Shown: positions 45,211 to 49,543, counted from the stretch's first letter. The stretch is DNA of 64,000 nucleotides from Candidatus Thorarchaeota archaeon (GCA_021498125.1 JAIZWL010000003.1:60457-124456); one strand, 5' to 3'. Notes: generated from the sequence alone by a model not told the origin. A program made the numbers and translations.

Positions 45211-46317
45211 ATGGCAGAAGACGAGTTTCTTGGAGCCAAGCCGATTGTCATTGACAATGGTACTGGCTTAAGCAAGAACGGGTACGCGGGTGAGGACCAG
45301 CCACGAAGCGTCTGGCCGACGCTCATTGGCTATCCACGTTACGAGAGCATCATGACTGATGTTGATCACTACACACGTGACTACTACATCGGTGAAGAGG
45401 CTATCAATCTACGTGGTGTGCTACGTCTGGTCTACCCCATCTCACATGGTGTCATCGACGACTGGGACGCCATTGAGAAAATCTGGAGCTACACATTCTA
45501 CAATGACCTTAAGGTCGATCCGAGCGAGAGCCCTGTTCTCCTCACGGAGGCACCTTACAACCCCCGAGAGAACCGAGAACGCATGGCCTCAGTTATGTTC
45601 GAGACCTTTGGTGTACCAGCAGTGTATGTTGCCACTCAGGCAGTCATGTCACTCTATGCATCAGGTAGAACCACTGGTCTGGTCGTGGACTCAGGTGACG
45701 GTGTTACTCACATCGTACCAATCTACGAGGGCTTTGTAATTACTCATGCTGTCCGTCGTATTGACCTCGCAGGCCGCGATATCACCGAGTACCTCCGAAG
45801 ACTGCTCCGGCAGAGAGGCTACTCATTTGTTAGTGGTGCTGAGAAAGAGATCGTCCGTGACATCAAGGAGAAACTGTGTTACGTCGCTAAAGACCCCGAG
45901 CAGGAACGCATTGTTGCCGACTCTGCTGGTGTTGACAAGCAGTACATGCTCCCTGACGGTGAAACAATCACTGTAGGTGCCGAGCGATTCCAAGCTCCCG
46001 AGCTGTTCTTCAATCCGAGCGCTATTGGTCTTGACACAATCCCACTTGACGAGCACATCGTTGAGTCGATCAAGGCTTGTGATGTTGACCTGCGCCGTGA
46101 CCTCTACGCAAACATCGTACTCTCAGGTGGTTCAACCATGTTCGATGGTCTCAAGGAACGACTCCTTAACGAGATCTCAGAACTTGTACCCGAGAATGTC
46201 GAAGTCCGTATCATCGCACCTCCCGAGCGTCAGTACTCAGTCTGGATCGGTGGAAGCATCGTCGCCTCCCTGAAGACCTTCCAGAATGCTGTTTGGGGTT
46301 TCCCGGCAGCCTGGTAA
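45211..46317 (+). CDS. Actin (Asgard/eukaryote-type), reading frame terminated at a TAA 21 codons before the conserved C-terminus
   Basis: Very high similarity to eukaryotic actin (DNGTGLSKNGYAGEDQPRSVWPTLIGYPRY, LTEAPYNPRENRERM, SGDGVTHIVPIYEGF, YSFVSGAEKEIVRDIKEKLCYVA, IAPPERQYSVWIGGSI). See finding on the C-terminal interruption. Confidence 0.9.
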   Translation: MAEDEFLGAKPIVIDNGTGLSKNGYAGEDQPRSVWPTLIGYPRYESIMTDVDHYTRDYYIGEEAINLRGVLRLVYPISHGVIDDWDAIEKIWSYTFYNDLKVDPSESPVLLTEAPYNPRENRERMASVMFETFGVPAVYVATQAVMSLYASGRTTGLVVDSGDGVTHIVPIYEGFVITHAVRRIDLAGRDITEYLRRLLRQRGYSFVSGAEKEIVRDIKEKLCYVAKDPEQERIVADSAGVDKQYMLPDGETITVGAERFQAPELFFNPSAIGLDTIPLDEHIVESIKACDVDLRRDLYANIVLSGGSTMFDGLKERLLNEISELVPENVEVRIIAPPERQYSVWIGGSIVASLKTFQNAVWGFPAAW

Positions 46318-46380
46318 ATGTGGGTTTCCAGGAAGGAGTTCGAAGAGGCGGGCCCAGAAGTCATCCATCGCTGTATCTAA
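46318..46380 (+). other. In-frame continuation encoding actin C-terminal peptide MWVSRKEFEEAGPEVIHRCI, separated from the actin ORF by TAA
   Basis: Aligns with eukaryotic actin C-terminus [21 protein letters not shown]; same reading frame as 45211-46317. Confidence 0.7.
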
Positions 46381-46484
46381 GCGTACCCTAGTATACGAAG
46401 GAATGCCAGCAAGGCGTTCCTTCACCAATCTCTTTTTTGTTTTGCAGAATGATTGCATTTTACCTGATAAGATTATGAGGGCTC

Positions 46485-47504: not shown

Positions 47505-48941
47505 TTGGCTGATGATCTGTTCCGTCTAATCATGGAAGAACGAGATAGGCTCGGTGATGTGGTCTCGTCCAGCGACATCTTTGACCGGCAGTTCGGTTCA
47601 GAATTGGCAGCATGGGAACTTCAGTTGCAACGCGAGTTCAGAGAGCATGTTCACGGGCGGATCTATAGATTTCGAGGTTTTGCCCATTATACTCGCGACA
47701 CCTCGTTAATCATGCTCACGCCAAGTCCATGGTTGGCAGATGGTGTCTTCATCTACATTCGCAGGGAACAAGAGCTCCCCCCTGAGGGCGGGTATGTAGA
47801 GATCACTGGTCAGCGCATTGTTGCCCCGGGGCCACTTCAGAAGACAAACACAACACTCGAGGCTTTTACAGCCGATTCTATTAAGATACAGCAGCTCGAT
47901 TTTGTGAGAGAGGTGCGTCCTCCTTTCACACTCAAAGAGTTGTCCTCTCTCTTATTCGAACGGGTGGGAATGGCTGAGGCAAGTAAGAGAGTCTTTGCTC
48001 TCTTGTTTGTTTCAAGCCCTCCCTTTGAGGGTACTGTTGGTGGTCTCACTGCCGGAATTCAGGCGCTGGCATCAAAGGCTCAGGTGAAACGCCTGATGAC
48101 CTTCATGCGACGAGTATTACCCCCCACTCTTCGTGGACGCTGGAGTGCCTATCGTACCGTCCGTGGTGTTCGCGTATCTACTCCTAAGATCTGGCGTCTG
48201 GATACTGGTTCCATCTCGGCGGCGCGATTAAGACAGCTCGCGTTGAAGCGTAAAGATCCATTAGGCTTTCAAGAGGTCTCAGTAGGTGCGCTTACTGGTA
48301 CTGGTACCTCTGCTCTTCCAGATGTCCCGATGGCCCTGACCTCCGAAGACTTTTGGATCGAGACCCGCAATGCCGAGGAACTGCGTCTTCCCATTCTCAA
48401 GTCCGCAATCACATTTCAGTTGTTGGCGCCATCGGTCACTCGACGCTCTGTTGACTCCTCTACCAAACATATTCTGGATCGTCTGGAACGACTCCAAGAC
48501 TCCTTTGGACTGGACGCTACTGCCCTCTCTCGTGGTGGTGTCCTAGATGCAGATGCTCTGGGACGGCCATTGAGCGCACTACGCCTGGCCCGGTCTTCAG
48601 CACGTGCGGACTGGAAAGAGAAGATCACTCTGAGGGAGCTAAAGCATGCATGGAATAGGGTACTGGAGCCTGCTCTCAAGGAGTATCTTGAGATCACAGC
48701 CCTGCACAAGGAGGCCGAGACCGAGTGGGGTGGTGCTCAGAAATTTGAGAGACTGAATACTAAGGTGCTACGTGCGTTAAAGCGTCTTGATCCCGGGAAA
48801 CGTGGTGGTCTTGGTCCTACTCTTGATGAGATTGCTGCGGAGGCCTCTGTGGAGCGTCATACCGCTGCTGAGGCATTAGAAAAAATGAAAGACTCGGGTG
48901 TAGTGTATGAACCACGCCCGGGTCATTATAGGCTTGTATAG
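47505..48941 (+). CDS. Hypothetical 478-aa protein with C-terminal winged-helix-like segment, translationally coupled to the methyltransferase
   Basis: TTG start directly after the MTase stop; no NTPase or nuclease motif recognised; C-terminal GLGPTLDEIAAEASVERHTAAEALEKMKDSGVVYE is wHTH-like. Confidence 0.4.
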   Translation: MADDLFRLIMEERDRLGDVVSSSDIFDRQFGSELAAWELQLQREFREHVHGRIYRFRGFAHYTRDTSLIMLTPSPWLADGVFIYIRREQELPPEGGYVEITGQRIVAPGPLQKTNTTLEAFTADSIKIQQLDFVREVRPPFTLKELSSLLFERVGMAEASKRVFALLFVSSPPFEGTVGGLTAGIQALASKAQVKRLMTFMRRVLPPTLRGRWSAYRTVRGVRVSTPKIWRLDTGSISAARLRQLALKRKDPLGFQEVSVGALTGTGTSALPDVPMALTSEDFWIETRNAEELRLPILKSAITFQLLAPSVTRRSVDSSTKHILDRLERLQDSFGLDATALSRGGVLDADALGRPLSALRLARSSARADWKEKITLRELKHAWNRVLEPALKEYLEITALHKEAETEWGGAQKFERLNTKVLRALKRLDPGKRGGLGPTLDEIAAEASVERHTAAEALEKMKDSGVVYEPRPGHYRLV

Positions 48942-48946
48942 ATGGA

Positions 48947-49543
48947 TCACTCTAGCGCCTTGAGGAAGTCCTCTGGTTCATTTCCTTCCTCAATAAGCTC
49001 GATCTCCTGAACACCGACTCGCTCAGCATCGTACTGGCGTGCCAGAATTGTGCCGTCGAACTTTTCACGAGCAGATGCATCTTTTCCGCGCCAGACGAAG
49101 ATATCATCCCATGTGTCCAAGATGAAGACATCATCGCTCTTTAGGGAGTCACGTGACAACGGTACCTCTGCAAAGAAGGTTTCATCCTCTTGTCGATGTA
49201 CTCTCCAGAGCTTGTACTCTCTCTTCTCAAGCTGAACTTTTCTCAAGATTCCTTCAGTATCTTCATCCGTGAGTTTAAAGTCATCAAAGAGTGCCTTGAA
49301 CGATTCTGGTTCATTGCCTCCCTCGATGCGGTCAATATCTGCTTCTCCCTTGCGGGCGGTGTCACGCATCACGGCAGACGCCGCAGTGAGAAACTTTTCA
49401 TCGACAGTTGAATTCGGACCTATCCAGAGATAGATCTTCAATCCTGCATCTACAAGGTAGCAGTCTCCTCTTCCAAAGGTCCCGGGATTTGGCATCTTGA
49501 CAAGTCGGCCTTTCTGGATATGGTACACTGTTGGTTCGGGCAT
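48947..49543 (-). CDS. Two-domain gelsolin (2DGel-type actin-regulating protein)
   Basis: Two tandem gelsolin/villin-type repeats: GDCYLVDAGLKIYLWIGPNSTVDEKFLTAASAV...GGNEPESFKALF and DDVFILDTWDDIFVWRGKDASAREKFDGTILARQ...EGNEPEDFLKAL. Typical gelsolin-domain spacing. Confidence 0.8.
   Translation of the reverse strand: MPEPTVYHIQKGRLVKMPNPGTFGRGDCYLVDAGLKIYLWIGPNSTVDEKFLTAASAVMRDTARKGEADIDRIEGGNEPESFKALFDDFKLTDEDTEGILRKVQLEKREYKLWRVHRQEDETFFAEVPLSRDSLKSDDVFILDTWDDIFVWRGKDASAREKFDGTILARQYDAERVGVQEIELIEEGNEPEDFLKALE

What the first reader, a model, noticed from the sequence alone, without database searches (positions are those of the whole stretch)
45211..49543. Eukaryote-type actin and a two-domain gelsolin in one 4.3-kb locus: an Asgard cytoskeleton module
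The 368-aa ORF at 45211 is an actin with very high conservation to eukaryotic actin across all four subdomains. This level of identity is seen only in Asgard archaea, not in crenactin or MreB. A two-domain gelsolin (2DGel type) is encoded convergently 2.6 kb downstream. Physical co-localisation of actin with an actin-severing/capping regulator is a compact eukaryotic-signature locus. The two genes are separated only by a DNA methyltransferase and one unknown protein.
Basis: partly seen in the sequence, partly recalled or inferred. Interest (0 to 1): 0.7.

Follow-up and report, generated by a model that had tools for sequence, protein, structure and literature searches.

The report
Mini-intron splits an Asgard actin gene
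The locus does encode a eukaryote-like actin and a two-domain gelsolin in a Thorarchaeota genome, as already known for this group. The new point is that a 30-base intron of the tRNA-splicing (bulge-helix-bulge) type interrupts the actin gene; I found such introns reported in only two other archaeal messenger RNAs.

Summary
Both genes are real. The 368-aa ORF is an Asgard actin (Pfam Actin 6e-122, about 57% identical to eukaryotic actins). The convergent 198-aa gene is an orthologue of the crystallised Thor 2DGel3 gelsolin (82% identity). The "cytoskeleton module" reading is weak. The genes converge, so they cannot be co-transcribed. A DNA methyltransferase and an OB/wHTH protein lie between them. 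Gelsolin lies within 10 kb of actin in only 7 of 39 Thorarchaeota loci.

The ORF is not the whole actin gene. A 30-nt insert (46287..46316) carrying an in-frame TAA cuts it short, and the canonical last 20 residues follow in frame. Four other Thorarchaeota species carry a 30-nt insert at the same site. All five fold into an archaeal bulge-helix-bulge splicing motif with compensatory changes. Cutting after the second bulge base restores the universal FQKMW. The 3' exon is under strong purifying selection and the insert is not. For one species, six DNA contigs carry the insert. A seventh, 100% identical JGI contig lacks exactly those 30 nt.

Most likely this is a BHB intron spliced by EndA and RtcB. 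It would be the first in an Asgard protein-coding gene. RNA-level proof is missing.

The parts
45211..46286 (+). Actin exon 1: codons 1-358 plus the first two bases (AA) of the Lys-359 codon.
   Evidence: Pfam Actin 6e-122. Alignments to solved actins cover residues 7-359. The spliced product is identical in protein sequence to P0002, the uninterrupted actin of relative L002.
46287..46316 (+). 30-nt bulge-helix-bulge intron, TGCTGTTTGGGGTTTCCCGGCAGCCTGGTA. Together with A46317 it creates the in-frame TAA at 46315-46317.
   Evidence: It is the only indel of 6 nt or more in 21 kb aligned to L002. The same insert is in an independent Logan assembly. Inserts of the same size at the same site occur in four other species.
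46317..46380 (+). Actin exon 2: third base of the Lys codon, then MWVSRKEFEEAGPEVIHRCI and the stop codon.
   Evidence: Among the five intron-bearing genes this stretch has 105.5 synonymous against 8.5 non-synonymous differences.
46281..46284 (+). Central helix H, 5' strand (CCAG, in exon 1). It pairs with 46311-46314.
   Evidence: L059 has TCAA/TTGA here, which is two double compensatory changes.
46285..46287 (+). 5' bulge AA|U. The predicted cut lies after its second base.
   Evidence: It is a 3-nt bulge in the MFE of four of the five sequences (4 nt in L056) and in the RNAalifold consensus. The cleavage rule comes from PMC2738675.
46288..46310 (+). Intron hairpin h': a stem of 9 positions (46288-46296 with 46302-46310; one position does not pair in this genome) and a 5-nt loop.
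   Evidence: Four of the nine stem pairs show changes on both sides among the species.
46311..46314 (+). Central helix H, 3' strand (CUGG, in the intron).
46315..46317 (+). 3' bulge UA|A. The predicted cut lies after its second base. In the MFE it is part of a 7-nt loop (relaxed form).
46274..46279 (+). Outer exon-exon helix h, 5' strand (AGACCU). It pairs with 46322-46327 (GGGUUU).
   Evidence: RNAalifold columns 13-18 with 61-66 of alignment A1, and the MFE folds.
45108..45114 (+). TTAAATA, a TATA-box-like element 103 nt upstream of the actin ATG.
   Evidence: Present at -115 to -80 in 53 of 57 related loci. Its role as a promoter is inferred.
45196..45204 (+). GAGGACCGA, a conserved Shine-Dalgarno-like element before the actin ATG.
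   Evidence: Seen in the upstream sequences printed for related loci.
46485..47504 (+). N6/N4 DNA methyltransferase (type II-like).
   Evidence: PF01555 2e-38. PADLOC MTase_II 3.5e-57.
47505..48941 (+). Thor-specific conserved protein (478 aa) with an OB fold and a C-terminal winged helix.
   Evidence: 211 homologues, every named one an Asgard MAG (mostly Thorarchaeota), with no Pfam family. The AF2 model is confident only for residues 45-130 and 425-478. Fold matches are RPA32/RPA14-like and weak.
48947..49543 (-). Two-domain gelsolin, an orthologue of Thor 2DGel3.
   Evidence: PF00626 5e-32 in two repeats. 82% and 80% identity to PDB 7c2g and 7c2h.
44090..44899 (-). 269-aa wHTH plus CARF-like protein, transcribed divergently from actin. 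It is actin's most conserved neighbour.
   Evidence: PADLOC CARF_m5 1.2e-12, with weak PadR and ArsR HTH matches. It is adjacent to actin in nearly all Thor loci and in the Jord and Freya loci L068-L071.

Best explanation
The actin gene of this Thorarchaeota genome is split by a 30-nt archaeal bulge-helix-bulge (BHB) intron. In the pre-mRNA the last bases of exon 1 (CCAG) pair with the intron's CUGG to form the 4-bp central helix. A 3-nt bulge (AA|U) lies between that helix and an intron hairpin with a stem of 9 positions. The second cut site (UA|A) lies 4 bp away on the other strand. The tRNA-splicing endonuclease EndA cuts after the second base of each bulge; published work says Asgard archaea have the (alpha-beta)2 form with broad specificity. 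The RNA ligase RtcB then joins the exons. This removes 46287..46316 and recreates CAG-AAA-AUG, giving a normal 379-aa actin that ends ...FQKMWVSRKEFEEAGPEVIHRCI. Unspliced mRNA would give a 368-aa actin lacking the C-terminal 20 residues of subdomain 1. What is shown: the insert, its conservation, the structure with covariation, the selection pattern, and the existence of a precisely 'spliced' sequence. What is inferred: the enzymes, and that the joining happens in RNA. The gelsolin 2.6 kb downstream is an ordinary 2DGel-type actin regulator that is loosely linked to actin, not co-expressed with it.
For: (1) The insert is real. It occurs in the window and in an independent Logan assembly. It is the only indel of 6 nt or more in 21 kb against a relative that is 88.8% identical.
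(2) Four other GTDB species representatives (L056, L057, L059, L061) have a 30-nt insert at the same site. Each has an in-frame stop followed by the intact tail. About 75 other Asgard actins read FQKMW without interruption.
(3) The geometry fits the BHB rule exactly: a 4-bp helix between two 3-nt bulges, with cuts between the second and third bulge bases (rule from PMC2738675). These cuts remove 30 nt and restore the Lys codon.
(4) There is covariation. 95.7% of cells are paired, against 33-49% when partners are slid. Six pairs change on both sides (0 of 500 shuffles reach this). These include CCAG/CUGG becoming UCAA/UUGA in L059, where synonymous exon sites co-vary with intron bases. RNAfold of each sequence and RNAalifold recover the same fold without guidance.
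(5) Selection differs by region. The 3' exon has 105.5 synonymous against 8.5 non-synonymous differences. The insert read in frame has 30.7 against 67.3.
(6) The insert is precisely present or absent between close sisters: WIN/L002 96.9%, L057/L019 94.2%, L059/L037 95.7% nucleotide identity.
(7) For the L061 strain, six DNA contigs from at least five datasets carry the intron. JGI contig Ga0393225_009461 is 100% identical over 1,221 nt but lacks exactly the 30 nt, with the junction UUCCAGAA|AAUGUGG.
(8) Asgard archaea have an EndA with broad specificity and many non-canonical tRNA introns (PMC5829648, PMC11291895). A tRNA gene with an insert of about 35 nt lies in this same window.
Against: No RNA data exist for this genome. 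The nature of JGI sample 3300036164 (metatranscriptome or metagenome) could not be established, so the intron-less contig could be a DNA allele. The 3' cut site is not a clean 3-nt bulge: in the MFE it sits in a 7-nt loop and the outer helix is offset, so this is a relaxed motif. The fold of the window's own sequence is not better than shuffles (z = -0.98), and neither is that of L056 (z = -0.61). Only L057, L059 and L061 are clearly structured. BHB-like geometry by itself is common by chance: 97 sites in the window against about 92 in shuffles. EndA and RtcB are not encoded in the window. In archaea translation can start on nascent mRNA, so splicing would have to compete with it.
Confidence: 0.8

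Rival explanations
1. The insert is never removed. Translation ends at the TAA, giving a 368-aa actin. The last 20 residues are either lost (a crippled gene or pseudogene) or made separately by re-initiation at the AUG that directly follows the stop, giving a two-piece actin.
For: A stop codon is followed at once by ATG in four genes and after one codon in L059. Public annotation calls these 367- or 368-aa proteins.
Against: This does not explain the BHB geometry, the constant 30-nt length, or the compensatory changes that link synonymous exon sites to insert bases. It also does not explain the contig with the exact 30 nt missing. A pseudogene is contradicted by strong purifying selection in both exons. 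From established actin structure, the C-terminal 20 residues are part of subdomain 1.
Confidence: 0.08
2. Programmed read-through of the stop codon, producing an actin with a 10-residue insertion between FQ and MW.
For: The insert is a multiple of three and in frame in all five species.
Against: The stop is TAA in four genes and TGA, one codon earlier, in L059. Neither the codon nor its position is kept. The insert shows no protein-level constraint, with non-synonymous differences about twice the synonymous ones. No SECIS-like or Pyl context is apparent, and TAA is not a known recoding codon in archaea (my knowledge).
Confidence: 0.03
3. Translational bypassing (ribosome hopping), as in phage T4 gene 60, over a hairpin-containing gap.
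For: There is a hairpin and a stop codon inside a short gap.
Against: No matching take-off and landing codons exist that would give the conserved frame. AAU-to-AAU landing is 32 nt away and shifts the frame. The in-frame position 30 nt on is UAA (read from the sequence).
Confidence: 0.01
4. An assembly or sequencing artefact, or a private recent mutation, in this MAG.
For: The insert partly resembles the sequence just downstream (TGGGGTTTCCCGG against TGGGTTTCCAGG).
Against: It is seen in an independent Logan assembly. Homologous inserts occur in four other species from different studies and assemblers, and in six datasets for one strain.
Confidence: 0.01
5. One reading: actin and gelsolin form a selected, compact cytoskeleton module.
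For: The order actin...gelsolin, always convergent, recurs in 10 Thor loci, and in L002, L003 and L063 at under 4 kb.
Against: It is absent within 10 kb in 32 of 39 informative Thor loci and in all 14 other Asgard loci. Distance and intervening genes vary. Co-transcription is impossible. The tighter block is methyltransferase, 478-aa protein, gelsolin.
Confidence: 0.15

Closest known systems
BHB intron in the cbf5 (dyskerin homologue) pre-mRNA of Crenarchaeota (Watanabe 2002; Yokobori 2009, PMC2738675)
   Same: A short intron inside a protein-coding sequence, with a mostly relaxed BHB. Cuts lie between the second and third bulge bases. The host has a hetero-oligomeric EndA. The distribution is patchy, with gain or loss among relatives.
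   Different: The gene (actin, a eukaryotic signature protein), the lineage (Asgard, Thorarchaeia) and the position (20 codons before the stop) are all different. There is no experimental cDNA proof here. The cbf5 gene in this window (62929..63936) appears uninterrupted.
Non-canonical tRNA BHB introns of Asgard archaea (PMC11291895; PMC5829648)
   Same: The same presumed machinery and motif. Asgard tRNA genes are rich in such introns, and one intron-containing tRNA gene lies in this window.
   Different: The host here is an mRNA, so splicing decides the reading frame and the protein's C-terminus.
BHB intron in the 5' UTR of Haloferax volcanii HVO_1309 mRNA (PMC7714728)
   Same: An EndA substrate in an mRNA outside tRNA and rRNA.
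   Different: That intron is in the untranslated leader, not in the coding sequence, and the host is a euryarchaeon with a homodimeric EndA.
Unconventional HAC1/XBP1 mRNA splicing in eukaryotes (my knowledge)
   Same: Non-spliceosomal removal of a very short intron (26 nt in XBP1) by an endonuclease plus RtcB or a tRNA ligase. The splice changes the C-terminal part of the protein.
   Different: The nuclease (Ire1) and the motif (two 7-nt loops) are different. XBP1 splicing shifts the frame, whereas here the frame is kept and a stop codon is removed. Regulation is not shown here.
Thor 2DGel3 gelsolin and Asgard actin (PMC7444086; PDB 7c2g, 7c2h)
   Same: The gelsolin here is 80-82% identical to the crystallised protein, with two gelsolin repeats and 198 aa. 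The actin is of the same eukaryote-like type.
   Different: Nothing notable; this is an orthologue in another species.

Membership tests
Archaeal BHB (bulge-helix-bulge) intron | Two 3-nt bulges on opposite strands, separated by a 4-bp helix. | tested here: met
   H is 46281-84 with 46311-14. The bulges are 46285-87 and 46315-17. The 5' bulge is a clean 3 nt in four of the five MFE folds (4 nt in L056). The 3' bulge is widened to a 7-nt loop in MFE folds, which is the relaxed form. In L056 the helix H has 3 bp plus an A.G mismatch.
Archaeal BHB (bulge-helix-bulge) intron | Cutting between the second and third base of each bulge yields a functional product. | tested here: met
   It removes exactly 30 nt and gives CAR-AAA-AUG (FQKMW) in all five species. 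The window's product is identical in protein sequence to P0002. The rule is from PMC2738675.
Archaeal BHB (bulge-helix-bulge) intron | Flanking helices h' (inside the intron) and h (exon with exon). | tested here: met
   h' is a hairpin with a stem of 9 positions next to the 5' bulge. h (AGACCU with GGGUYU) is present but offset by a small internal loop.
Archaeal BHB (bulge-helix-bulge) intron | The structure is kept by compensatory change. | tested here: met
   Six of 14 pairs change on both sides, and 0 of 500 shuffles reach this. The slid controls give 0 or 1 such pairs.
Archaeal BHB (bulge-helix-bulge) intron | A spliced RNA is observed. | tested here: inconclusive
   L085 (JGI 3300036164) is 100% identical to the L061 strain with exactly the 30 nt missing. 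Six DNA contigs of that strain keep them. The sample type is unknown.
Archaeal BHB (bulge-helix-bulge) intron | Cleavage by EndA and ligation by RtcB. | not testable with these tools
   Literature only: Asgard archaea have an (alpha-beta)2 EndA with the L1 loop (PMC5829648). Neither gene is in the window.
Actin family, eukaryote-like Asgard actin | Full-length match to PF00022 and closer to eukaryotic actin than to MreB or crenactin. | tested here: met
   Actin scores 407.6 bits against 37.3 for MreB. Identity is about 57% to eukaryotic and 72-100% to Asgard actins. The C-terminal 20 residues are present only after removal of the intron.
Gelsolin, 2DGel type | Two gelsolin repeats in a protein of about 200 aa, orthologous to a characterised Thor 2DGel. 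| tested here: met
   PF00626 matches in two stretches. 7c2g E=1e-110 with 82% identity over 196 residues.
Operon or co-regulated gene module (actin plus gelsolin) | Same strand or shared transcript, with conserved adjacency. | tested here: not met
   The genes converge. Gelsolin is within 10 kb in 7 of 39 Thor loci and 0 of 14 other Asgard loci.
Translational bypass (T4 gene 60 type) | Matching take-off and landing codons that keep the frame. | tested here: not met
   No such codon pair exists in any of the five sequences.
Sec/Pyl stop-codon recoding | A conserved UGA or UAG at a fixed position. | tested here: not met
   The stop is UAA in four genes and UGA, one codon earlier, in one.
Group I / group II intron | A ribozyme core of hundreds of nucleotides. 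| tested here: not met
   The insert is 30 nt. Rfam finds only a tRNA and RNase P RNA in the window.

The most novel reading that the evidence does not exclude
The actin intron is not just a tolerated passenger. It may be a regulated switch: EndA/RtcB splicing would decide whether full-length, polymerisable actin or a stop-terminated product is made, an archaeal counterpart of XBP1/HAC1-type cytoplasmic mRNA splicing. Alternatively it may be a mobile BHB intron that spreads into protein genes by reverse splicing guided by the 4-bp exon-intron helix, which would fit the patchy, precise presence and absence among sister species. Either reading would mean that close archaeal relatives of eukaryotes already process mRNAs of core cytoskeletal genes by splicing.
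Probability: 0.15. Interest if true: 0.9.

Novelty: new member of a known kind. Interest (0 to 1): 0.74.

Why it matters
The papers I could search report BHB introns in only two archaeal mRNAs: cbf5 of Crenarchaeota and one Haloferax 5' UTR. Finding one inside the coding sequence of actin, in five Thorarchaeota species, has three consequences.

First, it shows that the tRNA-splicing machinery very probably acts on the mRNA of a eukaryotic signature protein in the archaeal group closest to eukaryotes.

Second, it gives a small, directly testable system: one junction, a 30-nt intron, and natural intron-less sister alleles. This system can address mRNA splicing, intron gain and loss, and the competition between splicing and coupled translation in Asgard archaea.

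Third, it corrects public annotation. These actins are deposited as 367- or 368-aa proteins (for example MCF2137440.1, MDF1538084.1, MBD3407860.1) with a false C-terminus. That error would mislead structural and phylogenetic work.

The actin-gelsolin co-location itself is ordinary for Thorarchaeota.

Tried and rejected
1. My first check of the BHB by hand used the wrong topology (bulge 5' of the central helix) and rejected an intron. Redoing it with the tRNA topology, once the homologous inserts were seen, gave an exact fit.

2. A generic scan of the window for BHB geometry, with and without an ORF-continuity filter, gave about 660 and 97 hits. That is the same as in shuffled sequence (about 92), so it cannot find further mRNA introns.

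3. A covariance model of the intron found only the five actin copies in 1.3 Mb of window plus loci. There is no sign of dispersed copies.

4. A tblastn screen for split HSPs in 21 neighbouring gene families found only a probable frameshift in the L011 methyltransferase. It did not recover the actin cases, so it is insensitive to short exons.

5. blastn hid the 30-nt indel among small gaps. A MAFFT global alignment was needed.

6. ARAGORN found no tRNA in the window or in 32 loci. Rfam found one intron-containing tRNA in the window.

7. A JGI metagenome scan for any 17-47-nt insert at this actin site found only the L061-type copy and one scaffolding artefact, L084.

8. Searching papers for the sample identifiers (3300036164, Ga0393225, Ga0315553) found nothing.

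9. The structure prediction for the 478-aa protein was poor (pLDDT 54), and only domain-level hints could be used.

10. Plant actin intron 3 lies close to this site (from my memory). With 91 known actin intron positions among 1,125 possible sites this is not significant (PMC3152350).

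
Full report
THE OBSERVATION. Pfam assigns Actin (6e-122, against 1.8e-9 for MreB), N6_N4_Mtase (2e-38), nothing significant for the third ORF, and Gelsolin (5e-32, two repeats). Against solved structures the actin is closest to an archaeal 'HC1 actin' (9wc4, 9e-176), followed by yeast and animal actins at about 1e-146. The gelsolin is 82% and 80% identical to the two crystallised Thor 2DGel3 chains, 7c2g and 7c2h. Database relatives show that the genome is a Thorarchaeota MAG. 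The ORF is NCBI MCF2137440.1, on a 250-kb contig.

THE ACTIN ORF IS NOT THE WHOLE GENE. All alignments stop at residue 359. The sequence reads ...SLKTFQN-AVWGFPAAW-TAA and then continues in the same frame as MWVSRKEFEEAGPEVIHRCI-TAA, the canonical actin C-terminus. Contig JBQSIP010000026.1 (L002) is 88.8% identical over 21 kb and has the same gene order. It encodes an uninterrupted 379-aa actin reading FQKMWVS. In a global alignment of those 21 kb, the 30-nt actin insert is the only indel of 6 nt or more. An independent Logan assembly of run SRR15988961 contains the same insert.

THE INSERT IS SHARED BY OTHER SPECIES. I scanned one genome per GTDB species with the actin protein, which returned 80 loci, mostly Thorarchaeota. 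Four of them (L056, L057, L059, L061) have a 30-nt insert at exactly the same place. Each insert has an in-frame stop: TAA in three, and in L059 a TGA one codon earlier. Each is followed by the intact tail. About 75 other Asgard actins read KTFQKMW without a break. The inserts differ in sequence, at 0.30 differences per site against 0.17-0.19 in the exons. Read as codons they show 30.7 synonymous against 67.3 non-synonymous differences. The 20-codon tail after the stop shows 105.5 against 8.5, and the preceding 74 codons show 303 against 76. The tail is therefore translated in its frame, and the insert is not constrained as protein.

THE STRUCTURE. In all five genes the four exon bases before the insert (CCAG; UCAA in L059; CCAA in L056) can pair with four bases near the insert's 3' end (CUGG; UUGA; GUGG). 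Between them lie a 3-nt bulge (AAU or AAA) and a 23-nt hairpin with a stem of 9 positions and a 5-nt loop. After the 3' strand of the 4-bp helix come UAA or AAA and then AUGUGG. This is the archaeal bulge-helix-bulge motif in the tRNA topology: exon-exon helix h, central 4-bp helix H (5' exon with intron), two 3-nt bulges on opposite strands, and an intron helix h'. The published rule places the cuts between the second and third bulge residues (PMC2738675). Here that rule removes exactly 30 nt (window 46287..46316) and joins CAG-AA to A-AUG. The result is FQKMW in every species. For the window, the product has the same protein sequence as its intron-less relative.

TESTS OF THE STRUCTURE. Of all sequence-by-pair cells, 95.7% form standard pairs, against 33-49% when the partners are slid by 1-3 columns. 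Six of 14 pairs change on both sides, and 0 of 500 shuffles reach this. Two of those six lie in the central helix, where synonymous exon positions (UUC-CAG to UUU-CAA) co-vary with intron bases. RNAfold on each sequence and RNAalifold on the alignment both return H, the 5' bulge and the hairpin. They also return an outer exon-exon helix, AGACCU with GGGUYU. There are weak points. The 3' site lies in a 7-nt loop in these folds, so the motif is relaxed. The window's own fold and that of L056 are no better than shuffled sequence. BHB-like geometry alone is as frequent in shuffled sequence as in the window. The argument therefore rests on the motif coinciding with boundaries that homology defines independently. 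By my own estimate the chance of that is roughly 1e-4 for one sequence. It also rests on covariation across the five species.

A SEQUENCE WITH THE 30 NT PRECISELY REMOVED. An exact-sequence look-up showed that the predicted spliced protein of L061 exists on JGI contig Ga0393225_009461 from sample 3300036164. That 1,221-nt contig is 100.000% identical to L061 from 76 nt upstream of the ATG to 5 nt past the stop. It lacks exactly the 30 nt, and its junction is TTCCAGAA|AATGTGG. The same strain, also at 100% identity, occurs on six multi-gene DNA contigs from at least five other datasets: an NCBI co-assembly, JGI 3300031652, 3300031360 and 3300031585, and Logan SRR9710542 and SRR8557365. All six carry the intron. 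The intron-less contig starts 33 nt after a TTAAATA box that is conserved upstream of actin in 53 of 57 loci, which is where a transcript would begin. I could not learn whether the sample is a metatranscriptome. It is either a spliced mRNA, which I consider more likely, or a very recent, precise intron-loss allele. Both are what an intron predicts, and neither is what a random indel predicts.

DISTRIBUTION. In a neighbour-joining tree of spliced actin coding sequences the five intron-bearers fall in neighbouring clades. Three of them each have a close intron-less sister: WIN/L002 96.9%, L057/L019 94.2% and L059/L037 95.7% nucleotide identity. The window's intron differs from the other four in the distal half of the hairpin. 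This pattern suggests an old intron with repeated precise losses, or some mobility. An actin tree is not a species tree, so the number of events is open. A JGI metagenome scan for any 17-47-nt insert at this site found only the L061 type.

MACHINERY AND PRECEDENT. Published analyses state that Asgard archaea have the (alpha-beta)2 EndA with the L1 loop, which confers broad (relaxed-BHB) specificity (PMC5829648). They also state that some Asgard genomes have introns in over 90% of tRNA genes, often at non-canonical positions (PMC11291895). This window itself holds a tRNA gene with an insert of about 35 nt in the anticodon arm (57715..57830). A 2020 paper states that the only BHB introns known in mRNAs were cbf5 of Crenarchaeota and a newly found 5' UTR intron in Haloferax (PMC7714728). 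My literature searches found no report of one in an Asgard protein-coding gene. The library is incomplete, so prior description cannot be excluded.

RIVALS. A truncated or two-piece actin, stop-codon read-through, ribosome hopping and an artefact were each considered. None explains the BHB geometry, the covariation between exon and insert, and the precisely deleted contig taken together. Hopping fails for lack of matching codons. Read-through fails on the changing stop codon and the unconstrained insert. The artefact reading fails on the comparative data.

THE LOCUS AS A 'MODULE'. The methyltransferase and the 478-aa gene abut (47504/47505) and recur together with gelsolin. The 478-aa protein has 211 homologues, every named one an Asgard MAG (mostly Thorarchaeota), and no Pfam family. 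Its model is poor apart from an OB-like barrel and a C-terminal winged helix, with weak RPA32/RPA14 and MCM matches. I infer that it binds nucleic acid rather than acting in the cytoskeleton. Gelsolin is always convergent to actin. It lies within 10 kb downstream in 7 of 39 Thor loci that have enough flank, and in 3 shorter loci, at 0.5-9.5 kb. It does so in none of 14 other Asgard loci. The conserved neighbours of actin are upstream: an HD-domain protein, an RNase III-like protein and a divergently transcribed 269-aa wHTH/CARF-like protein. The last of these is also beside actin in the Jord and Freya loci. The actin-gelsolin linkage is thus a loose, lineage-limited synteny.

VERDICT. The finding of value is the 30-nt BHB intron in actin. 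I put about 0.8 on the reading that it is spliced as described. It is a new member of a known kind, namely archaeal BHB introns in mRNAs. It occurs in a lineage and a gene where specialists would not expect it, and it can be tested directly.

Noticed in passing
window 44090..44899 (-): A 269-aa protein is transcribed divergently from actin. It has an N-terminal wHTH (weak PadR and ArsR matches) and matches a PADLOC CARF model (1.2e-12). It is the most conserved neighbour of actin: adjacent in nearly all Thor loci and in the Jord and Freya loci L068-L071. It is a candidate ligand-sensing regulator of the actin gene.
   Followed up: partly
window 41826..44899: The block HD-domain (dNTPase-like) protein, RNase III-like protein, 269-aa wHTH protein, actin is kept at nearly fixed spacing across about 60 Thorarchaeota species. 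This is far more conserved than the actin-gelsolin linkage.
   Followed up: partly
window 45108..45114 and 45196..45204: A TTAAATA box about 100 nt upstream of the actin ATG is conserved in 53 of 57 loci. A GAGGACCGA Shine-Dalgarno-like element lies just before the ATG. Together they imply a long (roughly 70-85 nt) leader on actin mRNA.
   Followed up: partly
window 57715..57830 (-): A tRNA gene (probably Ser, anticodon GGA, with a long variable arm) has an insert of about 32-35 nt in the anticodon arm. Rfam found it and ARAGORN missed it. I could not settle the register of its BHB by hand.
   Followed up: partly
window 62929..63936 (-): A cbf5/dyskerin homologue (TruB_N, PUA, DKCLD). This is the gene that carries the classical mRNA BHB intron in Crenarchaeota. 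Here it appears to be one uninterrupted 335-aa ORF.
   Followed up: no
window 62516..62859 (-): Archaeal RNase P RNA (Rfam RF00373, 179 bits).
   Followed up: no
window 18265..24342 (+): The archaeal 'exosome superoperon': proteasome alpha, SBDS, Rrp4, Rrp41, Rrp42, L37ae, a 193-aa ORF with no Pfam match, Pcc1, prefoldin beta and DUF3194. The L37ae ORF is 147 aa, longer than the 85-position family profile.
   Followed up: no
window 586..12966: A cluster of heterodisulfide-reductase-like genes. There are two very large HdrA-like flavoproteins (1150 and 1078 aa), one fused to an MvhD/FlpD domain, and three CCG-domain (HdrB-like) proteins.
   Followed up: no
window 29728..35385: Histidine-utilisation genes (urocanase, histidine ammonia-lyase, imidazolonepropionase-like amidohydrolase), with endonuclease V between them.
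   Followed up: no
window 47505..48941 (+): A 478-aa protein conserved at 57-62% identity across Thorarchaeota, with no Pfam family. It has an OB-like barrel (residues 45-130) and a C-terminal winged helix, and a weak sequence match to the C-terminus of MCM3 (E=0.076). It is translationally abutted to the DNA methyltransferase.
   Followed up: partly
L040 5736 and 7845: One Thor species has two actin genes in tandem, about 2.1 kb apart. The second is divergent (…SLSTFFDKW…). Its last 19 residues and the sequence downstream are the same as those of the first, which suggests duplication with 3' gene conversion.
   Followed up: no
L011 16868..17774: The methyltransferase orthologue is split into two overlapping tblastn pieces with a 13-nt offset. 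This is probably a frameshift or a sequencing error, not a BHB intron.
   Followed up: no
L084 1021..1108: A JGI-collection record (JABAOC010060624.1) has a duplicated stretch of the actin 3' end around two N bases. It is a scaffolding artefact that mimics an insert at the intron site.
   Followed up: yes
P0248, P0254 (NCBI MHA1807173.1, MHA1779682.1): Other MAGs of the window's species have contigs that end inside the actin gene: 330-aa and 201-aa partial proteins identical to the window's actin. L090 and L091, from two datasets, also break at one shared position inside actin. I do not know why assemblies break there.
   Followed up: no
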